From a bacterium (GTDB lineage Bacteria; UBA10199; 2-02-FULL-44-16; DYJF01), in assembly GCA_041739675.1 (NCBI GenBank), contig JBGSNL010000037.1, forward strand, positions 1 to 63,017: a stretch of 63,017 nt of DNA, in the 5' to 3' direction. A program made the translations under genes and the position numbers. The notes beneath the pieces are model-generated. The model searched no databases and was not told the origin of the DNA. It saw only the letters and a program-made list of their open reading frames with translations. Positions 34,935 to 49,592 of the stretch are shown here, in pieces; positions within the stretch are counted from its first letter, which is position 1; every line of letters begins with the position of its first letter.

Positions 34935-35198
34935 ATGGGAAAGAAGCTGTTTGTAGGAAACCTTGACTGGTCGGTGAAGGATGAGGATCTCCAGCAGGCG
35001 TTCGGATCTTTTGGCGAGATCACGTCAGCACGTGTCGTCACCGACAGGATGTCAGGGCGTTCGAGAGGATTCGGCTTTGTTGAATTCGCCACAGACGAAG
35101 CGGCCGAAGAGGCAAAGAAGCAGATGAACGGCAAGGACATGAACGGCCGGCCTTTGAGGGTTGATGTGGCGCAAGAGACGACGAAACCCGGGCGCTGA
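34935..35198 (+). CDS. RRM (RNP-1) RNA-binding protein
   Basis: KLFVGNL (RNP2), RGFGFVEF (RNP1). Confidence 0.95.
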   Translation: MGKKLFVGNLDWSVKDEDLQQAFGSFGEITSARVVTDRMSGRSRGFGFVEFATDEAAEEAKKQMNGKDMNGRPLRVDVAQETTKPGR

Positions 35199-35327
35199 CG
35201 ATCATTTCGGCTGACAAAAAACCCCTTTAAAACCACGACGCGGCCCGTCAGGGCATTGACGCAAGACGGCTTGTAGCAGGCGATTGCGGTCACTATATTT
35301 GCGCCTTCTTTATAAAGGAAGGTGGTT

Positions 35328-35981
35328 ATGGTTGAACAATTGATCGGTTTTGCGGCACTGGCCCTGCCCTCGCTTATCATCATCACAAACCCGTTTTCGG
35401 TGGCCACGGTCTTTCTGACGCTGACCCAGTCCCATGACGCTGCGGCCAGGCGCGCCATTGCAAAAAAGGCGTGCAGGACCGCCCTCATAGTGATGGTTCT
35501 TTTTTCGCTTACCGGTACGCTCATATTCAAGGTTTTCTCAATTACGATAGGTGCCTTTCAGATCGCGGGCGGGCTCATCCTTTTCACCGTCGCTATGAAC
35601 ATGCTCCGCGCTTCGGTTCCGCTTCGCTTGAAGCAGACACCGAAGGAACTCAAAGAGGCGATGGCCAAGAACGATCCCTCCATTGTGCCGATCGCAATTC
35701 CCATGATCAGCGGGCCCGGAGCCATCACTACAGTTCTGGTCCTGGCAAGCGATGCGAAAGGTTATTGGGAAGTGCCGATCCTTCTCGTGTGCATCATCAT
35801 TTCTATAGTCATTATATATCAGGTTCTCCTGCATGTACCCCGCATGAGCAAATATCTGGGGACCTCGTTTCTCAATACTCTCAACAGGGTCATGGGGCTC
35901 ATTCTTGCCGCGGTCGCGGTGCAATTCGTCATCAACGGTATCAAGGCCGCACTTCCGGAAATCATGAAGGTCATCCACTGA
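35328..35981 (+). CDS. MarC-family membrane protein
   Basis: ITNPFS, FQIAGGLILF, VPIAIPMISGPGAI, RVMGLILAAVAVQF. Confidence 0.93.
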   Translation: MVEQLIGFAALALPSLIIITNPFSVATVFLTLTQSHDAAARRAIAKKACRTALIVMVLFSLTGTLIFKVFSITIGAFQIAGGLILFTVAMNMLRASVPLRLKQTPKELKEAMAKNDPSIVPIAIPMISGPGAITTVLVLASDAKGYWEVPILLVCIIISIVIIYQVLLHVPRMSKYLGTSFLNTLNRVMGLILAAVAVQFVINGIKAALPEIMKVIH

Positions 35982-35996
35982 CGATATCCTGAAAAT

Positions 35997-36033
35997 AAAA
36001 AGCCCCGACCTGTCAAAAGGCCGGGGCTTTTTT
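35997..36033. terminator. bidirectional intrinsic terminator
   Basis: AAAAAGCCCCG...CGGGGCTTTTTT between convergent genes. Confidence 0.75.
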
Positions 36034-36047
36034 AATGAAGCCTCAAC

Positions 36048-36230
36048 TTACGACTGCGCGCAACGCTTCACGAGCATCACGATTCCAAGGAGAACGGAGA
36101 CAACACCCATCACGATCTGAATGATAGGAGTGCCGCCGAAAACCTGTGACATGCCCGTATTGAGCTGCGGAATCGTGTGCACGAGACCGCCTACCAAGAG
36201 AAACACAGCAGCTATCTTCACGATATCCAT
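36048..36230 (-). CDS. small two-TM membrane protein
   Basis: 60 aa, two hydrophobic helices, strong SD GGGAGG. Confidence 0.7.
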   Translation of the reverse strand: MDIVKIAAVFLLVGGLVHTIPQLNTGMSQVFGGTPIIQIVMGVVSVLLGIVMLVKRCAQS

Positions 36231-36242
36231 ATCTTCCTCCCT

Positions 36243-36267
36243 GCCCGCCGGATTTTTGGTGGCGGGC
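36243..36267 (-). repeat. SD-adjacent hairpin motif, copy 2
   Basis: Minus strand GCCCGCC-accaaaaatcc-GGCGGGC followed by AGGGAGGA and ATG 36230. Confidence 0.75.
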
Positions 36268-36476
36268 TTTATATTTTCCCAAACCGTTTTTGCCGGCCGC
36301 GCGAACCGACATCAGAGGATTGGGTTACAATGGGGGCATGATAAGTGTGGGTGGCGCGCATCACAAGGCGACGCGCGTCATCGTTTCTGACTAGACGCGT
36401 CGTCTATCTCTCCCCCTGACCACCCCCATCGGTGTCGCTCCGTGTGACAAAGCACCACGGACCCGCCCGTTGGCAC

Positions 36477-37088
36477 CTATACTTTTTCTTTTATGGGTTT
36501 TGTGCTGAGCATTATGACAAGATCGAAGTCGTCGGGCTGAACGTCTTTTAAAGGGATAACTTTGGAGCGCATTATCGCGCGGCACTTGATACATCTGTGG
36601 GCTATTATATATTCTTTGCGCGCCGCGGAGATGATGCCCAGGGGTTTCATCAGACCACGGCACGGATTTGCACGGTCGCCAACATGTACGTCGACATGTT
36701 TTGAATAGAGGCAAAACGGGCAATGGTTGCGCGGCGTGCCGCATGTTGTCGGTTTCACCTCGGCGCCGCAATTTCCGCAGACGAACCCCTCATTCACAAC
36801 TTTGAAAAGTTTAGTGGGCAGGTCTCTTGGTTTTCCCTTGAAGTGTTTTGCAAGCGAGAGCTTCTCTTTTCTTGTGAGATTCTTGATTCTTGCCTCTTCT
36901 TTAAGGGCCGCCGATCTGGATCCACACTCCTCCTTATATATGAACCTGCCTCGCCCGCGGCCTCTTGTATATTTGGCGCCGGTGGATTTATTGTGTTCTT
37001 CAAGCCGGCGGGCCGGATCGTTTGTGATACCGGTGTAGAGTGTAGCGTCGCCGCACCGCAAGATATAGACAAACCAAACCTTTTTCAT
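36477..37088 (-). CDS. GIY-YIG (UPF0213-type) nuclease fused to an RNHCP domain
   Basis: FVYILRC..LYTGITND..RRLEEHN..GAKYTR..ALKEEARIK, then FVCGNCG..RNHCPFCLYSKHVD..GDRA..C..HRCIKC. Confidence 0.85.
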   Translation of the reverse strand: MKKVWFVYILRCGDATLYTGITNDPARRLEEHNKSTGAKYTRGRGRGRFIYKEECGSRSAALKEEARIKNLTRKEKLSLAKHFKGKPRDLPTKLFKVVNEGFVCGNCGAEVKPTTCGTPRNHCPFCLYSKHVDVHVGDRANPCRGLMKPLGIISAARKEYIIAHRCIKCRAIMRSKVIPLKDVQPDDFDLVIMLSTKPIKEKV

Positions 37089-37229
37089 ATTTAGAAAGCG
37101 CGATTATACAGGCGCAAAATACTTTACAATCGTCTTTATTTATTGTGAAGAGTCAATATAATACAAAATATATTTAGCTACGAGATTAAATAACAGAGAC
37201 AAGGAACGGCAAGGGAGGAGAGGGCGGCG

Positions 37230-39200
37230 GTGGTTTTTGTATTGTTTTCTATAGTTATTTTGGCAATAAGCTCACTTGTTTCAACACTCTTTGATGATGA
37301 ATCAAAAAAAGCGGTCATTGCTTGCATAGGCACCTCTCTTGGTTCTCTTGTCGGTCTTTTTTCTATCCTACCCGTAAAATACTTGTCTGATGGCATAACA
37401 ATTCCAACAAATATTTCGCTTATATCGTTTTCATTTGGACTAGACGCCCTAAGTCAATTTTTTCTCATCGTTATTTTTTTGATTTCGTTATTGGTCGGTC
37501 TTTACGGTTTAGGTTATATAAAAGAGCAGAGAAAGTTTATTCGAACGTCCCCCTTTTTTCCGCTTTTGACAGCCTCGATGTCTGCAGTTGTTATATCAAG
37601 AGATGGTTTTTCCTTCCTGATTTGCTGGGAAATCATGTCTTTGGTTTCCTTTTTCCTGGTCACTTCAGAACATGAAAATAAAGATGTTCAAAAGGCGGGA
37701 TGGATATATTTGATCGCAACCCATCTGGCTACTTCCTTTTTGATGGTCTTTTTTGTGATTATGGCAAAGACAAGCGGTTCGCTTTTATTCAGCGATTTTG
37801 TTTCAAACCACTCATATTCACCCTTTTTAGCGGGTCTTTTGTTTATTTTTGCACTTGTAGGTTTTGGCACGAAGGCGGGTATCTTCCCCCTTCATATATG
37901 GCTTCCTCACGCACATCCTGCAGCGCCGAGCTACATTTCGGCAATCATGTCGGGTGTGATGATAAAAACAGGTATCTACGGAATCTTGAGGACGCTGACC
38001 TTTCTTGGCAGTCCACCTTTGTGGTGGGGTACTCTTCTCGTGATTATTGGTGTCTTGTCTGCAGTGCTTGGTGTCTTATACGCGCTGATGCAACACGATC
38101 TTAAACGTCTACTGGCTTATCACAGCGTTGAAAATATTGGAATAATAGTGACGGGAATCGGCGTCGGTCTGTTGGGGATTTCCAGCGGAAACGCCGTGGT
38201 AACGGTATTGGGTCTGGGGGGCGCGCTTTTCCATGTTTTAAATCACGCAATTTTTAAAGGCCTCTTGTTTCTATGTGCCGGAAGCGTGGCGCACGCCGTT
38301 CATTCCCTCATAATTGACAGGCTCGGAGGTCTTTTAAAGAAAATACCGGTTACGGGGGTCACCTTTCTTATTGCTTCCCTTGCGATCTGCGGCTTGCCGC
38401 CGTTTAACGGTTTTATAAGTGAATGGCTGATTTACGTGGGCCTCTTTAAAGGAGCCCAATCTTTTTACGGTTATCCTGTTTTGCTTTCCGCGGCCGGAAT
38501 TCTAGGCATTGCGTTTGCGGGAGGTCTTGCCGTCGCCTGTTTCACAAAGGTTTTTGGCGTTGTTTTTTTGGGAGAGGCCAGGAATGAAATTTCTGAAAAG
38601 TGCCATGAACCGTCATGTCTTTTGCTTGTTCCGATGATCTTTCTCGCAATATTGTGTCTTTCAATAGGCCTGTATCCATTGCCCGTTTGGACGATGCTCC
38701 TCAGCGCGGTTCAAACCATCTTCCCAAATTTACATATTATTGAGACCGGCTGGATTTTATCGTCATTACGTTTCATCGGCATCTTGTTCGCTGTCGTTCT
38801 TGTTTTTATTGCCCTTCTTTTATTTGTGCGAAGACTGATTTTTCGTACAAGACCGATCGACAAAACGGTTACATGGGACTGCGGCTACGCCTATCCAACT
38901 GTAAGAATGCAGTACACCGCGTCCTCATTTGCGGAGCCGATAGGCGCTTTTTTCAAACCTGTATTAAAACCACTGATCAATTTCGATAAATTGGGAGGGG
39001 TGTTTCCCAAACCGCAGAAGTTTGAAGAGCACATTTATGATATCGCGGAAAAGAGCATCTTTGATCCGATGTTCAAATACATCCGGGTTGTTCTTCTTTC
39101 GATAAAAAAAAGAAAAAAGAGCACAATTCAGAGTTATCTCTCGCTCATTTTTATCACATTAATAATCCTCTTCGTTTTGGAGGTATGGTTTGGAATTTAA
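37230..39200 (+). CDS. hyfB: Ehr/hydrogenase-4 antiporter-like subunit (HyfB-like)
   Basis: WEIMS, KAGIFPLHIWLPHAHPAAP, LLAYHSVENIG, TWDCGY. Confidence 0.85.
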   Translation: MVFVLFSIVILAISSLVSTLFDDESKKAVIACIGTSLGSLVGLFSILPVKYLSDGITIPTNISLISFSFGLDALSQFFLIVIFLISLLVGLYGLGYIKEQRKFIRTSPFFPLLTASMSAVVISRDGFSFLICWEIMSLVSFFLVTSEHENKDVQKAGWIYLIATHLATSFLMVFFVIMAKTSGSLLFSDFVSNHSYSPFLAGLLFIFALVGFGTKAGIFPLHIWLPHAHPAAPSYISAIMSGVMIKTGIYGILRTLTFLGSPPLWWGTLLVIIGVLSAVLGVLYALMQHDLKRLLAYHSVENIGIIVTGIGVGLLGISSGNAVVTVLGLGGALFHVLNHAIFKGLLFLCAGSVAHAVHSLIIDRLGGLLKKIPVTGVTFLIASLAICGLPPFNGFISEWLIYVGLFKGAQSFYGYPVLLSAAGILGIAFAGGLAVACFTKVFGVVFLGEARNEISEKCHEPSCLLLVPMIFLAILCLSIGLYPLPVWTMLLSAVQTIFPNLHIIETGWILSSLRFIGILFAVVLVFIALLLFVRRLIFRTRPIDKTVTWDCGYAYPTVRMQYTASSFAEPIGAFFKPVLKPLINFDKLGGVFPKPQKFEEHIYDIAEKSIFDPMFKYIRVVLLSIKKRKKSTIQSYLSLIFITLIILFVLEVWFGI

Positions 39201-40116
39201 GTTTTCCAATCTCATTCTACACATTTTCATGGTGCTCGTCGCGCCACCCTTTTTTATTGGGGTGATAAACAGGGTAAAGGCGATCGTTGCAGGCAGAAAA
39301 GGGGCCCCTCTTTTTCAGCTCTATTTTGACATATTTAAATTGCTGAGGAAGGGCGCTGTCTATAGCAAAAGCACATCCGTGTTGTTCCAAATAATACCGG
39401 TTGCGGTGCTGGCATCAATTATATGTGCGAGCTGTTTTGTCCCCCTTACGGGCATATCATTGATAGGTTTTTCAGGGGACACCATAATTTTTATATACTT
39501 GTTTGCGCTTGTAAGATTTTTGACGATAACAGCCGCAATGGATACGGCGTCAAGTTTTGAGGGCATGGGGGCGAGCCGGGAAGCGACGTTTGGGGCATTT
39601 TCCGAATTGACCTTTTTTACAGCGCTGGTTGCATTGGCGATTATTACCCAGTCGTTATCTGTCAACGGGATGCTTACGTGGAGTGGAAGCCGTTTCGTGG
39701 TCGAGCCGTCAATGATACTTCTTTTTTTCGCGTTTTCTTTCATCCTCCTGACCGAAAATTCGCGCATGCCCATTGACGATCCAAACACGCATCTCGAACT
39801 GACAATGATACATGAAGTGATGATCCTGGATTACAGCGGGCCCGATTTGGGAGTTGTTTTATACGGCGCCTCGATAAAACTCTTCATCTTCATGGCGTTC
39901 GCGGTTTTGCTTATTTCTCCGACCACGGGGCACAATTTATGGATCGGAAGCGGCATTTTAATGTTGAAAGTGTTATGCGCGGCAATTGTCATTGGAGTTG
40001 TTGAATCGGTAACTGCAAGAATAAGGTTTCTCAGAATTCCCCAAATGCTTATTGCCTCGTTTGTCTTGTCTTTGTTTGCGCTTCTGGTTGCGCTTTTTGG
40101 ACTGGGAAGATTATGA
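39190..40116 (+). CDS. hyfC: HyfC/HycD (NuoH-like) membrane subunit
   Basis: AGRKGAP, FEGMGASRE, ENSRMPIDDPNTHLELTMIHE. Confidence 0.85.
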   Translation: MEFKFSNLILHIFMVLVAPPFFIGVINRVKAIVAGRKGAPLFQLYFDIFKLLRKGAVYSKSTSVLFQIIPVAVLASIICASCFVPLTGISLIGFSGDTIIFIYLFALVRFLTITAAMDTASSFEGMGASREATFGAFSELTFFTALVALAIITQSLSVNGMLTWSGSRFVVEPSMILLFFAFSFILLTENSRMPIDDPNTHLELTMIHEVMILDYSGPDLGVVLYGASIKLFIFMAFAVLLISPTTGHNLWIGSGILMLKVLCAAIVIGVVESVTARIRFLRIPQMLIASFVLSLFALLVALFGLGRL

Positions 40117-40754
40117 ATTGGATCCTGATAGGCATCGTTCTTACCACTTTTATAGTCCTTGGCTCGTCGAGAATTGTGCCCCGAATAAAGGCGGTGGCGG
40201 TCCAGGGCGCACTTCTTTCGGTAATGCAATTTATAATGCGAGGGGCAAGATTCGATCTTCACGGCTCTTTTCTCCTTATAATAACGCTTGTCATAAAAAC
40301 GATTATCATACCCGTTCTCATTTTCAGAACCATTAAGGGGCTCTCCACAAATGTTGATAAAGAACCGATAATTGGGAACCACTTGCTCTCGTTGACGGCG
40401 GGTTTGATCGCCGTGTTCAGCTTTTCAAGCATAAAGGTATTTCCCATTATATCGGAACCCGGGATTTCTCCGTTTCTGGTGCCTTCAGCGCTGACAACCG
40501 TTCTCACGGGGTTTCTAATACTTGTCACCAAGGCCAAAGCTACGAATCAGGTGTTGGGATTTTTGGTTTTGGAAAACGGCATATTCACATTCGGAATGAC
40601 CATCATCTCGGAGTTTCCTATGATGGTTGAGATAGGCGTGCTGCTCGATCTTGTGGTCGGCGTATTTATTATGGGTATCATGATTTATCACATAAATAAA
40701 ACATTCGATAATATCGATACGAGGACCCTGTCGGTCCTGGGAGACGTTGAGTGA
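40113..40754 (+). CDS. hyfE: HyfE-like membrane subunit
   Basis: QVLGFLVLENG, VEIGVLLDL. Confidence 0.82.
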   Translation: MNWILIGIVLTTFIVLGSSRIVPRIKAVAVQGALLSVMQFIMRGARFDLHGSFLLIITLVIKTIIIPVLIFRTIKGLSTNVDKEPIIGNHLLSLTAGLIAVFSFSSIKVFPIISEPGISPFLVPSALTTVLTGFLILVTKAKATNQVLGFLVLENGIFTFGMTIISEFPMMVEIGVLLDLVVGVFIMGIMIYHINKTFDNIDTRTLSVLGDVE

Positions 40755-42181
40755 TATTGACTATCTTCGTCCCTTTATTTTTGGGAATCATAACGCTGTT
40801 TCTCAGGGACAACAAAAGAATCGGGGCACGCAGGACGCTTCTCATCACGGGCGCCTTGTTGCATAACGCAGGAACCATATCCATTTTGTTTTTTAACAAG
40901 TGGTTATCGTGGGCCCCCTATTTGCAGGTGGATGGCCTTGGGTTTATCTTCCTTATTTTAATCAGCATAATATTTACGGTCACTTCGTTTTACAGCCTGG
41001 GATATTTCACTCTGAAACGAAAATATGCCGAAAAAGAGTCGGGCGGCCACATTTATGTGTCATGCATGCTTTTTTTCCTCAGCGCCATGACATTGGCGGT
41101 TTCGACGACTCACATCGGAGTGCTGTGGATTGCCATTGAATCCACAACCCTTGCGTCGGCGCCGCTGATATATTACCACCAGAGCCGTCGATCGCTCGAG
41201 GCGGCGTGGAAATACCTTTTGATTTGCTCTGTCGGAATAGCAATTGCGCTATTGGGCCTCTTTTTTGTCGCGGCATCGGCCAGGGGAACGGGGGCCGAAC
41301 TCTCGCTTTCATCCCTTATCGGACACGCAAGAGAGCTCGATGTCAGACTGTTACGGATAGGTTTCATTCTTGTTTTGATCGGTTTCGGAACGAAGATGGG
41401 ACTTGCCCCTTTTCATAATTGGCTGCCGGACGCACACAGTGAGGCGCCGTCTCCGATCTCCGCTCTTTTGTCGGCAACGCTTCTCAATTGTGCGTTGTTG
41501 GGTATTATAAGATTTTATCAGATCTGTCTTGCGGCCGGGCTGGGAGCTTTTGCGAACCGGCTCATGATGGTTTTTGGATTGATCTCCCTTTTTATTTCCG
41601 CCGTCTTTATAACAAATCAGAAAGATTACAAACGCCTTCTCGCATATTCCAGCATCGAACACATGGGGATTATAACTCTCGGAATAGGTATCAGTGCAAA
41701 TTTTGCGAGCTTGCTTCACGTGGTGAGCCATTCTCTCACGAAGGCGTTATTGTTTCTTACGGCCGGAAACATCCTTCTTTTATACAGGACAAAATCGATT
41801 TCCGATGTCGGCGGACTTTTAAAGACGTCTCCCCAGACGGGCATTTTGTTTATTATCGGCGGTTTCGCAATAATCGGCTCGCCTCCTTTTTTGCCGTTTA
41901 TCAGCGAATTTTTAATTTTGCGCGACGGAATCAATGGGGGACATATTTTGGCCATGTCGCTTTATTTGCTTTTCTTGGGCATTATTTTTGTGTCGATGTC
42001 CATGGCAATTTTGAAAATGGTCCAGGGAAAACGGCGAGAAACGATTGCGGGCGATCTGCCCAAAATTGTTATCGTTCCCCAGGTTGTCCTGGCGGTTGCA
42101 ATTGTCATTATGGGTTTGTATCTCCCGCAATATGTGAGTGATATTATTCGGTCGGCAACGCGGCTCCTAACCACTCTATGA
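40751..42181 (+). CDS. hyfF: HyfF-like antiporter subunit
   Basis: ESTTLASAPL, EAAWKY, WLPDAHSEAP, LAYSSIEHMG. Confidence 0.85.
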   Translation: MILTIFVPLFLGIITLFLRDNKRIGARRTLLITGALLHNAGTISILFFNKWLSWAPYLQVDGLGFIFLILISIIFTVTSFYSLGYFTLKRKYAEKESGGHIYVSCMLFFLSAMTLAVSTTHIGVLWIAIESTTLASAPLIYYHQSRRSLEAAWKYLLICSVGIAIALLGLFFVAASARGTGAELSLSSLIGHARELDVRLLRIGFILVLIGFGTKMGLAPFHNWLPDAHSEAPSPISALLSATLLNCALLGIIRFYQICLAAGLGAFANRLMMVFGLISLFISAVFITNQKDYKRLLAYSSIEHMGIITLGIGISANFASLLHVVSHSLTKALLFLTAGNILLLYRTKSISDVGGLLKTSPQTGILFIIGGFAIIGSPPFLPFISEFLILRDGINGGHILAMSLYLLFLGIIFVSMSMAILKMVQGKRRETIAGDLPKIVIVPQVVLAVAIVIMGLYLPQYVSDIIRSATRLLTTL

Positions 42182-43644
42182 CGAAGAATTTTGCAGTTTT
42201 AAAGAACGCTAGGTTGTGCCGAAGAGATGACATTCCGATTCTCGATATCGATAATTGGAGAAACTCTATTGTAGATATGTGCAAGAGCCACGAGGGTAGA
42301 ATCGTATCCCTATTTGGGAATATGAAGAAAGGCGGCGGGGCCAGGCTCTACTCAATATTGGGCATCGATTCGAAAGGTGAACTCCGGATCGCCGCAACGG
42401 ATGTCGTCGGGAACGCGTATAATTCAATAACAAACGACCTCGTGCAGGCCCATCTTTTTGAGCGAGAAATATTTGAAAACATCGGTGTTGAGCCGACGGG
42501 GCACCCGTGGCTCAAACCCGTCAGAAAATCGTCCGGATACAATTATTATTCCCTGGAGGGAGATTCCATTCATGAGGTCGCCGTGGGGCCCGTTCATGCC
42601 GGCGTCATCGAGCCCGGGCATTTCCGTTTTCAATGTCACGGTGAAAAGGTGTTCAATTTGGAGATACACCTCGGTTATCAGCGGAGGGGTGTGGAGAACA
42701 TGATGATCTCCGCAAAACCCTCCTCAAGGAGGGTCCTCGCCGAATCTGTTGCCGGGGATAGCGTGATTGCCAACGGGCTTGCCTATTGTCACGCGGTTGA
42801 GGGGCTGGGATCCAGAGAAGTGACTCAACGCGCGAGGGTAATCAGGGCAATAAGTCTTGAGCTGGAACGAATTGCAAATCACGTCGGCGATTTGGGTGCC
42901 ATTGCAAATGATGTCGGTTTTTTGCCGGCAGCGTCGTATTTTGGAAGGATCAGGGCCGAATTTCTGAATCTGCTTTTGGAGCTTACCGGCAATCGTTTTG
43001 GGCGTTCTCTCTTAAGACCTGGCGGCGTCGCTTTTGATATCGATCCCGACATGGTGGAAAAATTCAAGCTGAGGATTACAAGGGGAGTGTCGGACGCGGT
43101 TGACACGGCAGAATTGATGTTTTCGAATCCTTCTGTTGTTGCACGACTTGAAAAGACCGGCATTGTGACTCATGATCAGGCGAAAGAGATAGGAATGGTG
43201 GGCGTTGCCGCAAGGGCAAGCGGTCTTGAACGGGATGCGCGCCGCAACTATCCTGCGGGAATGTATAGATTCAAAGAAATTGTAATTGCAAAATGCTCTT
43301 CGGGAGATGTTTTTGCGAGAACCCGCGTCAGGTATATCGAAATTAAAAAATCGGCCGATCTGATACTTGAGTTGCTCGGCAAAATGCCTGCAGAAAAGAT
43401 TTATCATCCCATTGAGGCCCTTGATAAATCATCAGTTGTTGTCAGCATTATTGAAGGTTGGCGCGGCGAGATCGTTCATGCCGCCATGACGAATGAAAAC
43501 GGCGAAATTTCATTTTACAAAATTGTCGATCCTTCCTTTCACAATTGGACGGGACTTGAATTGGCGCTGCGGAACGGACAAATCTCCGATTTTCCGCTTT
43601 GTAACAAGAGTTTTAATTTATCCTACGCGGGTTACGATTTATAA
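42178..43644 (+). CDS. hydrogenase-like large subunit (NuoC/D-type) lacking Ni-binding motifs (EhrL)
   Basis: ERE..GHPW, VGPVHAGVIEPGHFRF, EGWRGE, DPSFHNW; the L1 site reads ESVAGD and the L2 site reads NKSFNLSYAG, with no CxxC. Confidence 0.85.
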   Translation: MTKNFAVLKNARLCRRDDIPILDIDNWRNSIVDMCKSHEGRIVSLFGNMKKGGGARLYSILGIDSKGELRIAATDVVGNAYNSITNDLVQAHLFEREIFENIGVEPTGHPWLKPVRKSSGYNYYSLEGDSIHEVAVGPVHAGVIEPGHFRFQCHGEKVFNLEIHLGYQRRGVENMMISAKPSSRRVLAESVAGDSVIANGLAYCHAVEGLGSREVTQRARVIRAISLELERIANHVGDLGAIANDVGFLPAASYFGRIRAEFLNLLLELTGNRFGRSLLRPGGVAFDIDPDMVEKFKLRITRGVSDAVDTAELMFSNPSVVARLEKTGIVTHDQAKEIGMVGVAARASGLERDARRNYPAGMYRFKEIVIAKCSSGDVFARTRVRYIEIKKSADLILELLGKMPAEKIYHPIEALDKSSVVVSIIEGWRGEIVHAAMTNENGEISFYKIVDPSFHNWTGLELALRNGQISDFPLCNKSFNLSYAGYDL

Positions 43645-43647
43645 TTT

Positions 43648-44424
43648 ATGTTCAGAATACTGAGAACGCGAATAAAGCAGGGGCACCAGACGCTTGCATT
43701 TCCTCCCAAAAAGGAGATGCCGGAAAGATTTCGGGGACTGCCAAAGGTTTATCCTGAAAAATGCGATAATTGCCAACTTTGCACCAAGGTTTGTCCGACA
43801 AATGCAATTTCTCTTTCTCCTTTGACGCTTGATCTCGGAAAATGCGTTTTCTGCGAAGAGTGTGTCAGTTCCTGCCCGACGAAAGCGGTTGAATATTCCA
43901 AAACGCTGTGGATGTCAGCGGGCAAAAGAGACGACCTGCTTTTAGATGGTAAGGAGTTGAAACTTGCCGAGGCGCTTAATGAAAAAACGAGAAAATTGTT
44001 CAATCGGTCTTTGATGTTGCGGGTCGTGACTGCGGGGAGCTGCAATGGATGCGAAATGGAATTAAATGCAATCGGCAACATTCAGTTCGATATATCGCGC
44101 TTTGGTGTGCAAATTGTGGCGTCCCCCAGGCATGCAGACGGTCTCATAGTCACGGGACCGGTCACCGATAATATGAAGCTGGCTTTGGAAAAAACCTATG
44201 CAGCAGTGGCAAATCCCAAAATCGTCATTGCTGTCGGGGCCTGTGCCATTAGCGGCGGTCCGTTTGAAAATAGCAGCTGTGCGAATAAGGGTGCCGGATC
44301 GATCGTGCCCGTTGATCTCTACATCCCGGGTTGTCCGCCTCATCCGTTGACGATAATGGGTGGTATTTTGAGAATGTTAGGCCGGATTTCGGCGAACGGG
44401 AACCGACAGGTAAGCAAGGTTTGA
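43648..44424 (+). CDS. 2x[4Fe-4S] ferredoxin fused to a NuoB-like small subunit (EhrS)
   Basis: CDNCQLCTKVCP, CVFCEECVSSCP, GSCNGCE, SPRHAD, GACAISGG, IPGCPP. Confidence 0.88.
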   Translation: MFRILRTRIKQGHQTLAFPPKKEMPERFRGLPKVYPEKCDNCQLCTKVCPTNAISLSPLTLDLGKCVFCEECVSSCPTKAVEYSKTLWMSAGKRDDLLLDGKELKLAEALNEKTRKLFNRSLMLRVVTAGSCNGCEMELNAIGNIQFDISRFGVQIVASPRHADGLIVTGPVTDNMKLALEKTYAAVANPKIVIAVGACAISGGPFENSSCANKGAGSIVPVDLYIPGCPPHPLTIMGGILRMLGRISANGNRQVSKV

Positions 44425-44466
44425 TGCCGTCTTTACAGGCTTTACTAATCATGCTAGTTAAAAAAT

Positions 44467-44784
44467 ATGGTATCTGCCAAAAGAAAGGCTGCAATTGTAA
44501 AGGCCGTTAAAAAAAGAAGAAAAAGGGTTCGTGATATGGCAGTTGCCCATAAAGGCGGGAAATGCCAACTTTGCGGTTACAATAAATGCAGAGAATCGCT
44601 GGAATTTCACCATATTGTGAAGGATAAAAAAGGTTTTGGAATTTCAGAAAAAGGATATACGAGATCTTGGGCCGCAATAAAGTCGGAACTAGACAAATGC
44701 ATTTTGTTATGTGCAAATTGTCATCGTGAATGGCACGCGGGGCTGATTAATGAAGGCTCGCTCACGTTCTTTGTAAATATATAA
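44467..44784 (+). CDS. free-standing HNH endonuclease
   Basis: KGGKCQLCGYNKC..LEFHH...KCILLCANCHREWH Zn-finger HNH core; basic N-terminus. Confidence 0.85.
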   Translation: MVSAKRKAAIVKAVKKRRKRVRDMAVAHKGGKCQLCGYNKCRESLEFHHIVKDKKGFGISEKGYTRSWAAIKSELDKCILLCANCHREWHAGLINEGSLTFFVNI

Positions 44785-44792
44785 ATTTGTAT

Positions 44793-45121
44793 TCCGCAGT
44801 AGCTCAGTCGGTCAGAGCAGGTGACTGTCAAAAGGCAGCCTTCATTGGAAACAATGAAGTGGCAAGCGGGTGAATTCAGGGAAACCTGTCCCGAGCATTT
44901 TAAAAACTCGGCATGGCAATCCTGAGCCAAGCTCTCTGATGTAAAAGGCAGGGAGAAGGTGCAGAGACTAGGAGGTGACGAAAGAATAATCCTCCACCAG
45001 CGCCCGCCACCTAAGTTTTCGAAGTTTTGGGAAAATAGGGTGAAGAGATAGTCCACGCCGGCCGGAAACGGTTGGATCTCGTGTAATCACCGGGTCGGGG
45101 GTTCGAATCCCTCCTGCGGAG
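44793..45121 (+). tRNA. tRNA-Asn(GUU), intron-split; exons 44793-44828 and 45084-45121
   Basis: Joined exons give TCCGCAG-TAGCTCAGTCGGTCAGAGC-A-GGTGA-CTGT^TAA-TCACC-GGGTC-GGGGGTTCGAATCCCTC-CTGCGGA-G, a full cloverleaf. Confidence 0.9.
44829..45083 (+). ncRNA. group I self-splicing intron (IC-like), 255 nt, no ORF
   Basis: P1 CTGT^C-AAAA-GGCAG with U.G at the splice site; P GAATTCAGGGAAAC, Q AATCCTGAGCC, R GGTGCAGAGACTA, S AAGAGATAGTCC; P3 GCGGGTG/CGCCCGC; P7 GACTA/TAGTC; GAAA-capped P2 and P9; terminal G 45083. Confidence 0.9.
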
Positions 45122-45127
45122 CAAGAG

Positions 45128-45152
45128 AAACGGCCTTATAGGCCGTTTTTTT
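45128..45152 (+). terminator. intrinsic terminator after tRNA-Asn
   Basis: AAACGGCCT-tat-AGGCCGTTTTTTT. Confidence 0.85.
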
Positions 45153-45248
45153 GTTTTTACATGGCCATTAAAAATCGGGCTGGCCTGAATTTGCCGTTGA
45201 CGATCCCGCCAAAGTGCTGGTAAATGCGGAAAATATCAGGAGGTGCCT

Positions 45249-46757
45249 ATGGGTAGCGAAGGAGTTCGTGCGGCGGAACCAGGTCCCGAAAATTTCATGT
45301 ACCTGCCTTGGGCCGATGTGGACAGACAGACATCAAGGCGATTGCCTGTGCCACCTGCCAGATATGACGCCGAAATTTCAAACGCGTACAAGTCAACGTG
45401 CGGCGGCAACAACCTGCCGGCAAATATCTACGCCGCGTATGCGGGTTCCTTCAGAGATGGTCCTTTCAGAAAAGGCGCCTGGGGTAGACGGATGTCATAT
45501 GCTCGGGATGCTCTCGGCGGGAATGGAGCTCAGTGGGCCCAGGCGGATTTTACGACATGGTTGGATGGCGGCAGAAGATGTGAAGAGGGATCGCCCGGTT
45601 ATAACAGATTCGTTCTTACGCAGAGGGCATTTGCAGGCGTAAGTTCGTCGGTGAGTCGCCATGTTCAGGAAAGTATGAGGTTAGCTACTCAGTCCATGCT
45701 GGACACGCGTCTTTTTCATTATAGCCGCAGGCGAAATCGGATATTGTTCGACGGATCGGTTCTTAACATGCATCAGGAGAAAGGCTGGTTGACCAGCGAC
45801 AGAAGGCTGAGAAACAGGCTGGCCGACCGCGGCGGTTTTGAGGAATTGATGTCGCGAAACAGTTATGGTTTCTACAGGAACCGCGAGGGCGATGATTTAG
45901 TGCTAGGCGACAATTACATTTTATGGGGCACGTTTAGTCCGGCTGTATCGTTTGCGGCGCAGTTTGTAAAAGGAGAAGACAACCGCCAGACGGTGAGTGG
46001 ACAGGCACTTGTAATACGAAATGGGCAAGGCATATGGCATCCGGTTGTCGAACACGCGGGTGACGTCCTCGCTTACTTGCGCGAACTCGAAACGAGGGAG
46101 ACGCCCATATCTGAAAAACCGCTGTCCTTAAGCGAGGTGCTGGGCAGGTACGGCTACCTGTATTTGGGCAATGGCAGCGGCAAGAAAGCAGGCGAGACTT
46201 TCAAACGCGCTGCAATGACATACGAGAGTGTGGGTAGAATATGGAGCATGGATGAAATAGGTGTATCCGGCGGCGTCGCTATCACAAATAGACTATGGTA
46301 CAGGGCCGCGGAGCAATATTATCTCGCTTCGGCGGTATATGTGGCTATGGGCGAGTTCAGCTCCGCAGGAGGGATGCTTCACGACATGACGAGATGCCTT
46401 ATAATGGCGGGCATTGAGTATTCCGACAAGGTTCAAAAGATCGAGACGGCTGTTGCGAAACTCGGCAGCAATCACAACGGTAGAAATAGTGCGCCTCCTC
46501 GTGCTGGCGGAGGACAAGCCGTGGCCGGCGGTTCATCAGTTACGGGATTGGCAGAAACCGGCGAAACAAGCTCCGGTGCGGCGTCGGGTGCCAGCCCGTA
46601 CTCAAGGGCGCTGCCTGTCACGCCGCAGGGAAGGCTTGCGCGAGCGGCAGGATTTTTCATATCGCGTTCGCGGGTAATGGCTCAATATCGGGCACCGCGA
46701 CATGCGTGGTTGTCGGGCGCCATTCTCTTCAATCCAAAATTGGCGTTGGCGCGTTGA
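45249..46757 (+). CDS. hypothetical protein
   Basis: Long ORF with SD AGGAGG; possible TPR-like helices near the C-terminus and a G/S/A-rich tail; no family recognised. Confidence 0.6.
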   Translation: MGSEGVRAAEPGPENFMYLPWADVDRQTSRRLPVPPARYDAEISNAYKSTCGGNNLPANIYAAYAGSFRDGPFRKGAWGRRMSYARDALGGNGAQWAQADFTTWLDGGRRCEEGSPGYNRFVLTQRAFAGVSSSVSRHVQESMRLATQSMLDTRLFHYSRRRNRILFDGSVLNMHQEKGWLTSDRRLRNRLADRGGFEELMSRNSYGFYRNREGDDLVLGDNYILWGTFSPAVSFAAQFVKGEDNRQTVSGQALVIRNGQGIWHPVVEHAGDVLAYLRELETRETPISEKPLSLSEVLGRYGYLYLGNGSGKKAGETFKRAAMTYESVGRIWSMDEIGVSGGVAITNRLWYRAAEQYYLASAVYVAMGEFSSAGGMLHDMTRCLIMAGIEYSDKVQKIETAVAKLGSNHNGRNSAPPRAGGGQAVAGGSSVTGLAETGETSSGAASGASPYSRALPVTPQGRLARAAGFFISRSRVMAQYRAPRHAWLSGAILFNPKLALAR

Positions 46758-47918: not shown

Positions 47919-47936
47919 TTTGGTATGAAGGCCGAT

Positions 47937-49592
47937 ATGTCAAAACAACTCGTTATCACACTGAACGGTAAAAAAATAACGGCTGCGGTCGGGACGCCCA
48001 TCTTCGACATTCTGGATCAGAGTCCGCACACGGGCCCATTCCCTGCGATAGGAGCGATAGTCAACGGCAGGCCCGACGGTCTCTACTATGAGCTCAAGTC
48101 CGATGCGACGATTGAAACGATCGATCTGTCGCGCCGCGAAGGGATGGATATCTACAGGCGCACGGCAACGGTCATTCTTTGCGCGGCTCTCAAAGAGATT
48201 GATCCGCACGCCAATTTGACCGTGGGGCAATCGATATCGGACGGCTATTTTTTCGAGATACATCATCATCCTATGTCGCTTGAACTTTCGGGCCATCTTG
48301 AAAGCAAGATGCGCGAATTCGTAGCGGCCGACATCTCCCTGAAAAGGGAATGGACGATCATCGAAGAGGCTATCCAGATCATGGAGCAGGAGAACCAGAA
48401 GGACAAGGTGATGCTCCTCGATCAATACCGCCGCTCGGAGATTCCTCTCATCAGAATAGGGAAATATCACGGGATCGCATACGGCCCGGTGGCCCATCGC
48501 ACGTCCACGATCAACACTTTCAGGCTCCATCCCTATGAGCACGGTATAATTCTGGGTTTTCCGGACTCTCACGGGAAGTTGGCGGAGTTCATACCACCCC
48601 AGCCGAAACTATTTTCGACATACGTGGAAACGAAAAGGTGGTACGAGCTCATTGGCGCCTCCAACGTGGCGCAGCTAAATGATCACTGTGTGAAGAGCAC
48701 GATATCCGATCTCGTTAAAGTGGCCGAGGCGCTTCACGAGAAAAAAATTTCCGCCATCGCCGATGAAATTGCCTCAAGAAAAAACGTCCGCATGATCCTG
48801 ATCGCAGGTCCTTCGGGTTCCGGCAAGACCACTTTTACAAAGAGGCTTGCGATCCAACTTAAACTTCACGGTCTCGAACCTGTGTCACTTTCGCTCGACA
48901 GTTACTACGTTGACAGAGAGAAGACGCCGAAGCACCCGGACGGATCGTTTAATTTCGAATGTCTCGAGGCGCTGGACATAGATCTTCTAAACGAAAACTT
49001 GAAGCATCTCATGGCGGGCGAGTTGGTGGATGCCCCATGCTACAATTTCCCGCTGGGCAGACGCGATCCTGGAAGAACGATCCCTTTGAAACTGGGAAAA
49101 CATCAGGTGCTCATAACGGAGGGGATCCACGGTCTGAACGACTCTCTCTCTCCTGCAATTCCAAGGGAGAATAAATTCAAGATATATGTCTCGGCGCTGA
49201 CGCAGCTTTCACTTGACGATCACAACCGCGTTTTCACGACCGACACGCGTCTCGTGAGAAGGATAGTGAGGGATCGCCTTTTCAGAGGATCGAACGCCGC
49301 TGACACGATAGCGATCTGGCCAAGCGTTCGCATGGGCGAGGCGCACTACATCTTCCCCTATCAGGAAGACGCGGACGTGATTTTCAACTCGGCGCTCGCC
49401 TATGAGCCGGCCCTTTTGAAACCCTTTGTCGAAAGATTCTTATCGGAGGTTCCGCGGAGCCATCCGTCCTATATGCAGACCGGTAGGCTTTTGAGATTTT
49501 TTGCGTTTATCATACCTATACTACCTGCGGAGGTCCCGCACACATCTATTCTGAGGGAATTCATAGGGGGTTCGGCGTTCAGATACACCTAG
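47937..49592 (+). CDS. nucleoside (uridine) kinase with N-terminal TGS/ThrRS-like domains
   Basis: GMDIYRRT, IAGPSGSGKTT, LDSYY, EGIHGLN, RRIVRD. Confidence 0.85.
   Translation: MSKQLVITLNGKKITAAVGTPIFDILDQSPHTGPFPAIGAIVNGRPDGLYYELKSDATIETIDLSRREGMDIYRRTATVILCAALKEIDPHANLTVGQSISDGYFFEIHHHPMSLELSGHLESKMREFVAADISLKREWTIIEEAIQIMEQENQKDKVMLLDQYRRSEIPLIRIGKYHGIAYGPVAHRTSTINTFRLHPYEHGIILGFPDSHGKLAEFIPPQPKLFSTYVETKRWYELIGASNVAQLNDHCVKSTISDLVKVAEALHEKKISAIADEIASRKNVRMILIAGPSGSGKTTFTKRLAIQLKLHGLEPVSLSLDSYYVDREKTPKHPDGSFNFECLEALDIDLLNENLKHLMAGELVDAPCYNFPLGRRDPGRTIPLKLGKHQVLITEGIHGLNDSLSPAIPRENKFKIYVSALTQLSLDDHNRVFTTDTRLVRRIVRDRLFRGSNAADTIAIWPSVRMGEAHYIFPYQEDADVIFNSALAYEPALLKPFVERFLSEVPRSHPSYMQTGRLLRFFAFIIPILPAEVPHTSILREFIGGSAFRYT

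What the first reader, a model, noticed from the sequence alone, without database searches (positions are those of the whole stretch)
44467..45121. Free-standing HNH endonuclease abutting the intron-containing tRNA: candidate two-part homing element
Seen: the 105-aa HNH gene stops 8 bp before the first tRNA base on the same strand, and the intron itself has no ORF. Established: free-standing homing endonucleases can mobilise an adjacent ORF-less intron by cutting intron-less alleles (collaborative homing, described in phages). Inference: the HNH may target the uninterrupted tRNA-Asn anticodon region, the intron would protect the host copy, and both would spread together as a roughly 650-bp chromosomal cassette, probably co-transcribed. 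I consider this the best candidate in the window for an undescribed system.
Basis: inference. Interest (0 to 1): 0.85.

Follow-up and report, generated by a model that had tools for sequence, protein, structure and literature searches.

The report
Homing nuclease gene in tRNA-Asn leader
A small DNA-cutting (HNH) gene of a family that normally sits inside the self-splicing intron of the asparagine tRNA gene lies here just outside it, in the tRNA's own leader, so the proposed steps by which mobile introns form can be compared in nature.

Summary
A 105-aa HNH gene (44467-44784) stops 8 bp before the genome's only detected tRNA-Asn(GUU) gene. That gene is split between anticodon positions 35 and 36 by a 255-nt ORF-less group I intron (Rfam 87 bits).

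This is not an isolated system. In 75 of 80 bacterial loci from many phyla the same HNH family is encoded inside this same intron, in loop L1. In phages its relatives stand free beside uninterrupted tRNA-Asn genes (47 of 64 loci).

The window shows a rarer form, found in 5 of the 22 genomes of its order. The ORF sits in the pre-tRNA leader, directly behind a conserved promoter-like motif. Its protein sequence is under purifying selection, and two of the five copies are decaying. One relative's assembly holds HNH-plus and HNH-minus alleles: flanks 99% identical, cassette about 90%.

Most likely this is a working free-standing homing endonuclease that spreads with the adjacent intron (collaborative or trans homing). 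Cleavage site, intron-based immunity, splicing and co-transcription are untested.

Earlier notes of this scan reported the same family on other DNA. My literature searches found no paper describing it.

The parts
44432..44460 (+). Promoter-like two-part motif: TTTACA (44432-44437), 14 nt, TGCTAG (44452-44457), with TAGTTA as the possible -10 (44455-44460). It ends 6 nt before the ATG, so the HNH message would have almost no leader.
   Evidence: The same motif at the same spacing stands upstream of tRNA-Asn in G008 (intron-less), G009, G017, G020:C86 (no HNH), G035, and in G019 and G020:C96 upstream of the HNH. The tool's sigma-70 scan does not flag it, because its second hexamer lacks T at position 6. 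The region is deleted in G001. Promoter function is inferred.
44467..44784 (+). HNH endonuclease gene, 105 aa: a long basic N-terminal helix followed by a zinc-type HNH core. It is free-standing and lies inside the pre-tRNA 5' leader.
   Evidence: Pfam HNH_2 and HNH both score over their cut-offs. PHROG 2255 'HNH endonuclease' matches at E 8e-27. Every family-invariant residue is present (C33 C36 H48 C78 C82 N84 C85). Purifying selection: pN 0.06-0.18 against pS 0.67 or more among the four full-length leader-type copies. AlphaFold model pLDDT 88.8. The collection's own gene call is 82 aa, starting at Met24, but the first 23 residues are conserved in relatives.
44785..44792 (+). 8-nt spacer between the HNH stop codon and the tRNA. 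The last codons of the ORF and this spacer are the native 3' end of the tRNA leader.
   Evidence: The same leader end (..GTTCTTTAAA..ATAT) directly precedes tRNA-Asn in HNH-less alleles G008, G017, G009 and G020:C86.
44793..44828 (+). tRNA-Asn(GUU) 5' exon, 36 nt, ending CTGT.
   Evidence: ARAGORN with introns allowed. Alignment with uninterrupted tRNA-Asn genes of G002, G005 and G008.
44829..45083 (+). ORF-less group I intron, 255 nt, inserted between anticodon positions 35 and 36. It has a short L1 loop (CAAAA) and the internal guide GCAGCC at 44835-44840.
   Evidence: Rfam RF00028 87.2 bits, E 1.8e-22, full model, with a U.G pair at the 5' splice site. The last base is G. It is the only group I intron found in the genome.
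45084..45121 (+). tRNA-Asn 3' exon, starting TAATCACC and ending at discriminator G73. CCA is not encoded.
45124..45152 (+). Terminator-like hairpin followed by a T run.
   Evidence: 13 pairs, T-rich tail.

Best explanation
The gene encodes a working homing endonuclease of a family specialised on tRNA-Asn genes. In most bacteria this family is carried inside loop L1 of the group I intron that splits tRNA-Asn(GUU). In the order that holds this genome, the ORF instead lies in the tRNA's 5' leader, directly behind the tRNA's own promoter-like motif.

Proposed working, all inferred. One transcript carries the HNH message, 8 nt, the 5' exon, the intron, the 3' exon and the terminator. The HNH is translated from the leader. 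RNase P cuts the leader off. The intron splices itself out to give the cell's only tRNA-Asn.

In a cell with a tRNA-Asn allele that lacks the cassette, the enzyme nicks or cuts that gene. Repair from the cassette-bearing DNA then copies the HNH and the intron, which lies only 45 nt away, in together. This is collaborative homing if the cut is at the intron insertion site, and trans homing if it is nearby.

Because the ORF lies outside the conserved exons, such spread needs homology upstream of the leader. It is therefore confined to close relatives.

Shown here: family membership, the link to tRNA-Asn, the position in the leader, selection on the protein, and allele polymorphism. Inferred: transcription, cleavage site, immunity and homing.
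For: 1. Linkage. All 10 loci in 61 class-level genomes (the window's own genome included) that hold a close copy or a broken piece of the HNH lie beside or inside a tRNA-Asn group I intron. Of the best 80 loci from other phyla, 78 show tRNA-Asn split at the same site, with the HNH inside the intron in 75 and free-standing in 3.

2. The target gene is implied twice over. Phage relatives stand free next to tRNA-Asn in 47 of 64 loci that have a flanking tRNA. Asn makes up 50 of 102 flanking tRNAs, against 64 of 417 tRNAs overall in those loci.

3. Function is retained. All invariant residues are present. Among the four full-length leader-type copies, pN is 0.06-0.18 while pS is 0.67 or more, that is saturated.

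4. Position in the leader. The conserved motif at fixed spacing, and the native leader 3' end, are shared with HNH-less and intron-less alleles.

5. Exchange at cassette level. G020:C86 (no HNH) and G020:C96 (HNH) are 99.3% identical over the 145 nt upstream, differ by an exact 285-nt indel equal to the ORF, are about 90% identical from the leader end through the intron to the terminator (with compensatory changes in P2), and are 27/28 identical beyond that.

6. Possible recipients exist. Intron-less tRNA-Asn genes occur in G002 (same family), G005 and G008. A wetland-metagenome contig joins a 5' exon identical to the window's over 39 nt directly to the 3' exon.

7. Gain-decay cycle. G001 has lost the start codon and the motif region and carries C33R and N84D. 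G006 is frameshifted.

8. Precedent. Collaborative and trans homing have been described in phages (PMC3984707 sections 11-12; PMC2790892 discussion passages).
Against: No cleavage, splicing or transcript data exist, and no RNA run holds the stretch.

Phage relatives sit beside uninterrupted tRNA-Asn genes. [quoted passage not shown] The intron thus largely follows the host rather than the HNH.

Both G020 alleles already carry the intron, so that pair does not show HNH and intron arriving together.

The promoter motif fails the tool's sigma-70 criteria.

A 105-aa protein is small for a sequence-specific homing enzyme. The fold search gives only weak matches (best E 0.019, McrA).
Confidence: 0.6

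Rival explanations
1. The HNH homes on its own and the intron is only a bystander. The enzyme targets the tRNA-Asn gene or its leader at a site the intron does not interrupt, and it spreads only itself into HNH-less alleles, with or without an intron. The intron is a vertically inherited resident of the tRNA gene in this class.
For: Phage relatives lie beside intact tRNA-Asn genes in 47 of 64 loci. ORF-less introns without any HNH occur in G017, G009, G004, G041 and G020:C86. The intron tree mixes HNH-plus and HNH-minus introns and keeps the class together (96 SH-aLRT). The G020 alleles both carry the intron and differ by an exact ORF-sized indel.
Against: Among bacterial loci, none of the 88 with a readable tRNA (10 in the class, 78 in other phyla) shows the HNH beside an uninterrupted tRNA-Asn. 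The diverged tract in G020 extends through the intron to the terminator, not just across the ORF. The intron lies only 45 nt from the ORF, well inside the usual co-conversion distance (PMC2790892 discussion passage: up to 2 kb in T4).
Confidence: 0.25
2. The gene is stranded or has been taken over by the host. After leaving the intron it can no longer home. It is kept for some other reason, such as punishing loss of the intron or another nuclease role, or it is simply on its way to decay.
For: Two of the five copies in the order are decaying (G001, G006). Only 5 of 22 genomes of the order have it. Its position outside the exons makes spread depend on homology in the flanks.
Against: Strong purifying selection with saturated synonymous sites acts across two families of the order. 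A related cassette, 87-95% identical, turns up in an independent sediment study. The G020 polymorphism shows a recombination signature.
Confidence: 0.12
3. The adjacency is chance, and the gene is a generic McrA-like restriction or defence nuclease that happens to lie next to a tRNA.
For: Some source annotations call relatives 'McrA'. The best PDB sequence and fold matches are to McrA.
Against: The linkage to tRNA-Asn is near-total across bacteria and phages. The McrA matches are weak (E 6e-4 by sequence over 23 residues; fold E 0.019).
Confidence: 0.03

Closest known systems
Collaborative homing: free-standing F-CphI with the ORF-less psbA group I intron of cyanophage S-PM2 (Zeng, Bonocora and Shub 2009; Bonocora and Shub 2009). 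I saw these only as cited and summarised in PMC3984707 section 12 and in PMC2790892 discussion passages.
   Same: A free-standing endonuclease gene lies next to a gene that carries an intron with no ORF of its own. The pair is proposed to spread together, and to be a stage on the way to a mobile intron.
   Different: Here the setting is a bacterial chromosome, not a phage, and the host gene is a tRNA, not a protein gene. The enzyme family is HNH, whereas a paper title and abstract listed (PMC6083498) describe F-CphI as an Endo VII-type enzyme. The same enzyme family also exists inside the same intron elsewhere, which was not the case for F-CphI. Cleavage at the insertion site is not shown here.
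Trans homing: phage T4 free-standing HNH MobE with the nrdB intron that carries defunct I-TevIII (Wilson and Edgell 2009, PMC2790892; abstract and discussion passages read).
   Same: A free-standing HNH family enzyme is encoded next to a non-autonomous intron. The intron is mobilised by co-conversion because it lies within recombination distance.
   Different: [quoted passage not shown] Where this enzyme cuts is unknown. The T4 case is a phage protein-coding gene, and the intron there keeps a dead ORF, whereas the window's intron has none.
HNH-carrying group I intron of tRNA-Asn. Earlier notes of this scan call it setting 'Asn.4Ug' in K.P. Williams, bioRxiv 10.1101/2020.01.27.920355. I read the whole text held; its Table 1 is an image and the text never says 'Asn'.
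   Same: Same tRNA, same insertion site (CTGT/TAA), homologous intron core, homologous HNH (53-67% identity).
   Different: In that form the ORF lies in loop L1 of the intron and runs through the guide sequence into P3. Here it lies upstream of the 5' exon and L1 is 5 nt long. The preprint maps introns and does not analyse their ORFs.
I-Ssp6803I, the endonuclease encoded in the tRNA-fMet group I intron of Synechocystis (Bonocora and Shub 2001). I saw only the title, in the reference list of PMC3984707; details are recalled.
   Same: A homing endonuclease whose target is the anticodon region of a bacterial tRNA gene split by a group I intron.
   Different: It is intron-encoded, belongs to a different nuclease family (PD-(D/E)XK, recalled), and concerns a different tRNA.
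[quoted passage not shown]
   Same: Endonuclease genes wedged between tRNA genes and inherited together with them. Phage relatives of the window's HNH have exactly this setting.
   Different: The window is chromosomal and the neighbouring tRNA carries an intron. SegB belongs to another nuclease family.

Membership tests
HNH / His-Me finger endonucleases (Pfam PF13391, PF01844) | Profile score above the curated cut-off | tested here: met
   HNH_2 26.7 bits against 21; HNH 23.4 bits against 21.4.
HNH / His-Me finger endonucleases (Pfam PF13391, PF01844) | Catalytic His/Asn and two CxxC zinc pairs present | tested here: met
   C33, C36, H48, H49, C82, N84, C85 and H86 are all present and are invariant or nearly so in 72 family members. 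The copy in G001 has C33R and N84D. The assignment of roles to these residues is recalled, not tested.
HNH / His-Me finger endonucleases (Pfam PF13391, PF01844) | Beta-beta-alpha metal-finger fold | tested here: inconclusive
   The model is confident (pLDDT 88.8, pTM 0.77). The listed fold matches are almost all HNH nucleases (McrA, Cap5, Cas9 HNH domain, Gme HNH), but none reaches E<=0.001 (best 0.019, TM 0.48).
HNH / His-Me finger endonucleases (Pfam PF13391, PF01844) | Metal-dependent DNA nicking or cleavage | not testable with these tools
   Needs purified protein.
Group I introns (Rfam RF00028) | Covariance-model score above the gathering score over the whole model | tested here: met
   87.2 bits against 50, model positions 1-253.
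Group I introns (Rfam RF00028) | U.G wobble at the 5' splice site in P1, and a terminal G | tested here: met
   U44828 pairs with G44835 in the Rfam alignment. G45083 directly precedes the 3' exon.
Group I introns (Rfam RF00028) | Removal restores a canonical host RNA | tested here: met
   ARAGORN draws a 75-nt cloverleaf. The exons match uninterrupted tRNA-Asn genes of three relatives.
Group I introns (Rfam RF00028) | Self-splicing | not testable with these tools
   Implied only: this is the sole tRNA-Asn gene found in the genome (MAG 94.6% complete).
Intron-encoded HNH of the tRNA-Asn intron (L1 form) | Protein homology along the whole core | tested here: met
   51-54% identity to four class-level L1 copies and 55-67% to 80 loci of other phyla.
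Intron-encoded HNH of the tRNA-Asn intron (L1 form) | ORF located inside the intron | tested here: not met
   The ORF ends at 44784 and the 5' exon starts at 44793. L1 is 5 nt long.
Collaborative / trans homing pair | Free-standing endonuclease gene within recombination distance of an intron that has no working ORF | tested here: met
   The ORF's stop codon ends 44 nt before the intron's first base, with the 8-nt spacer and the 36-nt 5' exon between. No + strand ORF of 40 aa or more lies in the intron.
Collaborative / trans homing pair | The endonuclease cuts the intron-less allele at or near the intron insertion site | not testable with these tools
   Only inferred, from the family's intron-encoded members and from the linkage of phage members to tRNA-Asn.
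Collaborative / trans homing pair | The cassette-bearing allele is immune | not testable with these tools
   Phage relatives beside uninterrupted tRNA-Asn genes show that immunity need not come from an intron.
Collaborative / trans homing pair | Endonuclease gene and intron are inherited together | tested here: inconclusive
   For: all 5 leader-type copies stand beside the intron, and the diverged tract in G020 covers the ORF site, the intron and the terminator. Against: the intron tree does not follow HNH presence, and both G020 alleles have the intron.

The most novel reading that the evidence does not exclude
A single HNH family has moved repeatedly between three settings at one target gene. 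It stands free beside intact tRNA-Asn genes in phages. It lies inside the tRNA-Asn intron in most bacteria. It stands free beside an ORF-less intron in at least four separate lineages. In this order its message is the 5' leader of the pre-tRNA itself. If so, this is a natural, sequence-resolved series for the long-debated question of how a ribozyme and an endonuclease gene combine into a mobile intron (or come apart again). It also offers matched enzymes and target alleles that can be tested directly.
Probability: 0.5. Interest if true: 0.75.

Novelty: new variant of a known kind. Interest (0 to 1): 0.6.

Why it matters
According to the 2014 review I read (PMC3984707), how mobile group I introns arise rests on two phage examples of a free-standing endonuclease working with an ORF-less intron. 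In neither was the same enzyme family also found inside that intron.

Here one family shows both states at the same site of the same tRNA gene, and it also has phage relatives beside the uninterrupted gene. Whether the cut site equals the intron insertion site, whether the intron confers immunity, and which way the ORF moved can each be tested with a 105-aa protein and short synthetic targets.

The case also shows a protein gene living inside a pre-tRNA leader.

There is a practical point too. Standard tRNA finders miss this gene or name it wrongly, so genomes like this one look as if they lack tRNA-Asn.

Tried and rejected
1. Expression. The look-up of sequencing runs listed no RNA holder, so nothing can be said about expression, the transcription start or splicing.

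2. Read laying used contigs only. It showed a related cassette in one other study and one intron-less allele. Parts without cover are not evidence.

3. Origin of the leader form.
- The free trees place it among intron-encoded copies, but support is weak.
- An AU test on a reduced set did not reject a common clade with the phage copies (p 0.64; the constrained tree was 4.0 log-likelihood units better). That set had 59 rows: all 4 full-length leader-type copies, every third of 81 intron-encoded and of 68 phage rows, and 5 named rows.
- The same test on all 158 rows did not finish in two runs.
- The direction of movement stays open. The absence of the Cys-rich N-terminal extension seen in most of the phage ORFs I looked at (30 of them printed) is only a hint towards an intron origin.

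4. A relic 5' exon upstream of the ORF, which an exon-duplication route would leave behind. None is visible in G000, G019 or G020.

5. Simple deletion between direct repeats as the origin of the HNH-less G020 allele. The junction does not fit.

6. The metagenome scan for close relatives of the leader form returned nothing above 65% identity.

7. The sigma-70 scan did not flag the proposed promoter.

8. NCBIfam gave no family. The PDB sequence search gave only weak McrA and group II maturase matches.

9. Further 'introns' called by ARAGORN in the genome (contigs C25, C59, C65) are not backed by the Rfam search of the genome and were dropped.

10. The antisense 111-aa ORF at 44721-45056 overlaps the tRNA and the ribozyme. 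I treated it as spurious without a conservation test.

11. Searches for prior description. None lists a paper on an HNH in or beside a tRNA-Asn intron. Supplements and the image table of the Williams preprint could not be seen.
Full report
WHAT IS THERE. On the + strand a 105-aa ORF (44467-44784) ends 8 nt before a tRNA gene (44793-45121) that is split by a 255-nt insert.
- The ORF passes the Pfam cut-offs for HNH_2 and HNH.
- The insert is a full-length match to the Rfam group I intron model (87.2 bits, E 1.8e-22).
- Default ARAGORN does not see the tRNA. With introns allowed it draws a normal 75-nt cloverleaf but calls it Thr(tgt), because TGT stands at both junctions.
- The U.G pair that the Rfam alignment puts in P1, together with the need for a terminal G, fixes the splice sites at 44828/44829 and 45083/45084. 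The loop is then CTGTTAA, anticodon GUU.
- The exons align with uninterrupted tRNA-Asn(GTT) genes of three relatives.
- The genome has its own tRNA-Thr(tgt) and no other tRNA-Asn (MAG 94.6% complete, so absence is not proven).
- A terminator-like hairpin follows at 45124-45152.
- The genome has one such intron and one such HNH.

THE SAME PAIR IN RELATIVES, IN TWO ARCHITECTURES. I searched 61 genomes of the same class, the window's own genome among them, with the protein and with the intron model. All 10 loci with a close copy or a broken piece of the HNH (8 at E<=1e-34, 2 in pieces), the window's own included, touch a tRNA-Asn group I intron.
- Leader form, as in the window: the ORF lies upstream of the 5' exon and stops 8-13 nt before it, and the intron has a short L1 loop. 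This is seen in five genomes of the window's order (G000, G001, G019, G020:C96, G006).
- L1 form: the ORF lies inside the intron, in loop L1 between the 5' splice site and the internal guide sequence, and reads on through the guide and P2 into P3. The intron is then 536-554 nt long. This is seen in four genomes of other orders (G025, G055, G032, G034).
- G056 and G035 keep shrunken remains of that L1 ORF.
- Protein similarity between the two forms runs from the start codon to the motif ..CANCHRE.HAG and stops exactly where the guide sequence begins in the L1 form.
- Introns with no ORF and no neighbouring HNH occur in G017, G009, G004, G041 and G020:C86.
- Intron-less tRNA-Asn genes occur in G002 (same family), G005 and G008.
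- The order holds 22 genomes in the collection. Five have the leader form: three intact (G000, G019, G020) and two decaying.

WIDER SAMPLING. A scan of one genome per species found at least 511 relatives.
- In the best 80 loci, 78 have a tRNA whose 5' exon ends CTGT and whose 3' exon starts TAA after a G. That is tRNA-Asn split at the same site. The other two are cut off by a contig end.
- The record titles name Omnitrophota, Elusimicrobiota, Acidobacteriota, Nitrospirota, Patescibacteria lineages, Planctomycetota, Pseudomonadota, Bacillota, Bacteroidota and others.
- The HNH lies inside the intron in 75 of these loci.
- It is free-standing in 3: upstream in an Omnitrophota record (L083, with a separate consensus promoter between HNH and tRNA), upstream in a Patescibacteria record (L101), and about 150 nt downstream in a Saccharicenans record (L064). 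All three introns pass the Rfam gathering score.
- A profile search of 1.84 billion cluster representatives gave 346 proteins at E<=1e-30 and 12,737 at E<=1e-10.

PHAGE RELATIVES CHANGE THE PICTURE. Viral contigs hold at least 564 relatives.
- Among the best 80 loci there are 71 with non-identical HNH DNA. Of these, 64 have a tRNA within 400 nt, and in 47 of the 64 that neighbour is an uninterrupted tRNA-Asn.
- Asn accounts for 50 of 102 flanking tRNAs, against 64 of 417 tRNAs overall in those loci.
- Only two viral loci carry the intron. L159 has the L1 form. L150 has the HNH directly upstream of an intron-split tRNA-Asn.
- The family is therefore tied to the tRNA-Asn gene as such. This supports the idea that the gene is its target. 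It also shows that a carrier genome can be immune without an intron.
- In metagenome contigs, more distant members (41-54% identity) often lie convergent with tRNA-Arg(UCU).

THE ORF SITS IN THE TRNA'S OWN LEADER.
- Upstream of tRNA-Asn in this order stands a two-part motif at fixed spacing (TTTACA, 14 nt, TGCTAG). A leader of roughly 35-50 nt follows, ending ..GTTCTTTAAA..ATAT. This holds for the intron-less allele (G008) and for the HNH-less intron-bearing alleles (G017, G009, G020:C86).
- In G000, G019 and G020:C96 the same motif precedes the HNH start codon, and the same leader end supplies the last codons, the stop codon and the spacer.
- In the window the motif lies at 44432-44457, and the possible -10 ends 6 nt before the ATG. 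The message would have almost no leader.
- With 8 nt between the stop codon and the tRNA there is no room for a separate promoter or terminator. Co-transcription is thus the simplest reading, but it is inferred. The tool's sigma-70 scan does not flag the motif, and no RNA data exist.

IS THE PROTEIN STILL USED?
- All residues that are invariant in 72 family members are present.
- Among the four full-length leader-type copies, non-synonymous differences are 0.06-0.18 per site while synonymous differences are 0.67 or more, that is saturated. The protein has therefore been under purifying selection since these lineages split.
- G001 (same genus) has lost the motif region and the start codon (ATG to ATA) and carries C33R and N84D. 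G006 is frameshifted. This is the decay phase expected of a homing endonuclease gene.
- The AlphaFold model is confident (pLDDT 88.8): a 25-residue N-terminal helix followed by the HNH core. Fold matches are nearly all to HNH nucleases, but weak (best E 0.019).

A POLYMORPHIC PAIR OF ALLELES. The G020 assembly (5% contamination) holds both states. Contigs C86 and C96 compare as follows:
- They are 99.3% identical over the 145 nt upstream.
- They differ by an exact 285-nt indel that equals the ORF, from its ATG to 21 nt before its stop codon.
- They are only about 90% identical from the leader end through the tRNA flanks, intron and terminator (428 nt), with compensatory changes in P2.
- They are 27/28 identical beyond that.
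A plain deletion of the ORF would leave the intron as similar as the flanks, which it is not. The pattern fits replacement of a cassette-sized tract by recombination, as homing would produce. But both alleles carry the intron, so it does not show that HNH and intron arrived together.

In public runs, contigs of one independent sediment study carry a related HNH-tRNA-intron stretch (87-95% identical). A wetland contig carries an intron-less tRNA-Asn whose first 39 nt are identical to the window's.

PHYLOGENIES.
- The four full-length leader-type HNHs form one group (SH-aLRT 92-94) on a long stem. The three other free-standing copies are scattered among intron-encoded ones, so at least four changes of setting are needed.
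- The free trees put the leader-type group among intron-encoded copies. On a reduced set, however, an AU test did not reject joining it to the phage copies (p 0.64). Its origin is open.
- The intron tree keeps the class's introns together (96) and mixes HNH-plus with ORF-less introns. The two G020 alleles are nearest neighbours. The intron thus mostly follows the host.

MECHANISM AND RIVALS. My best reading (0.6) is a working free-standing homing endonuclease that is expressed from the pre-tRNA leader and spreads together with the intron 45 nt away, by repair of a cut in cassette-less tRNA-Asn genes. The main rival (0.25) is that it homes alone and the intron is a resident bystander. The phage data and the intron tree favour that rival. 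The complete absence of bacterial copies beside uninterrupted tRNA-Asn (0 of 88), and the extent of the diverged G020 tract, speak against it. A stranded relic (0.12) and chance adjacency (0.03) are less likely.

COMPARISON WITH WHAT IS KNOWN.
- The 2014 review describes collaborative homing from two phage systems and gives no tRNA-Asn case (PMC3984707, sections 11 and 12 read; 'Asn' occurs 0 times).
- The T4 MobE paper separates trans homing from collaborative homing by whether the cut is at the insertion site (PMC2790892, passages).
- The Williams 2020 preprint raises the known tRNA intron settings from 4 to 21, but its table is an image, and it does not treat the ORFs (whole held text read).
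- My five literature searches listed no paper on an HNH in or beside a tRNA-Asn intron.
- Earlier notes of this scan report the same family on other genomes, both inside the intron and free-standing, and gave me the lead to the preprint and to the phages.
- This window adds four things: the placement in the leader behind a conserved motif, the evidence of selection, the 5-of-22 distribution with decay, and the G020 allele pair.

VERDICT. This is a new variant of a known kind of system. Interest 0.6.

Noticed in passing
L011, L016, L018 (G044:C263, about 72.3-75.6 kb): Three distant HNH paralogs (36-40% identity) are wedged between genes of a dense tRNA array (Tyr, Met, Cys, Trp, Lys, Lys, Ala, Pro, Ile, His, Arg). 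This looks like a phage-type tRNA cluster with free-standing endonuclease genes.
   Followed up: partly
L235, L236, L240-L242, L246, L248, L252, L256, L258, L277, L284, L287, L288 (metagenome contigs); L013 (G057:C1): A sub-group at 41-54% identity repeatedly lies tail-to-tail with tRNA-Arg(tct). In G057 a weak relative lies 35 nt upstream of tRNA-Arg(tcg). This may be a sister lineage specialised on another tRNA gene.
   Followed up: no
P0121-P0128 and many others: Many of the best profile matches are proteins of 220-430 aa with two matched stretches, that is two copies of this HNH module in a single protein.
   Followed up: no
window 45180-45235; window 47919-49298; L048 (G002:C10): Where relatives have an intron-less tRNA-Asn, the tRNA is inverted relative to its neighbours. 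A wetland contig has window 45180-45235 on the opposite strand 68 nt upstream of the tRNA. In G002 the tRNA lies 88 nt from, and divergent to, the homolog of window 47919-49298. I do not know whether the inversion is connected with gain of the cassette.
   Followed up: partly
window 37089-44465: About 7.4 kb has no counterpart at the matching place in the same-genus genome G001, whose flank matches window 35118-37089 and then joins the HNH cassette after about 400 nt. At its 3' end it holds respiratory-complex-I-like hydrogenase subunit genes (42178-44424). The last 17 nt of the small-subunit gene are shared with the G001 flank.
   Followed up: partly
window 44467-44535: The public gene call for this protein is 82 aa and starts at Met24 (P0002). 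Conservation of residues 1-23 in relatives supports the 105-aa ORF.
   Followed up: yes
window 44793-45122 and loci: ARAGORN with introns allowed often misnames this split tRNA-Asn as Thr, Tyr, Pro, Ser, Leu or His, because the intron ends can slide. Default tRNA finding misses it altogether, so the genome appears to lack tRNA-Asn.
   Followed up: yes
61 class-level genomes: [quoted passage not shown] 35 of 61 genomes have a match at E<=0.001 (29 over the cut-off), some with up to 6. They include introns in genes that ARAGORN names tRNA-Leu(taa), Leu(caa) and Lys(ctt).
   Followed up: no
window 45243-46757: The 504-aa ORF directly downstream of the tRNA has no Pfam match at E<=0.1.
   Followed up: no
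window 44721-45056, minus strand: A 111-aa GTG-started ORF runs antisense across the tRNA 5' exon and most of the ribozyme. It is probably spurious; I did not test its conservation.
   Followed up: no
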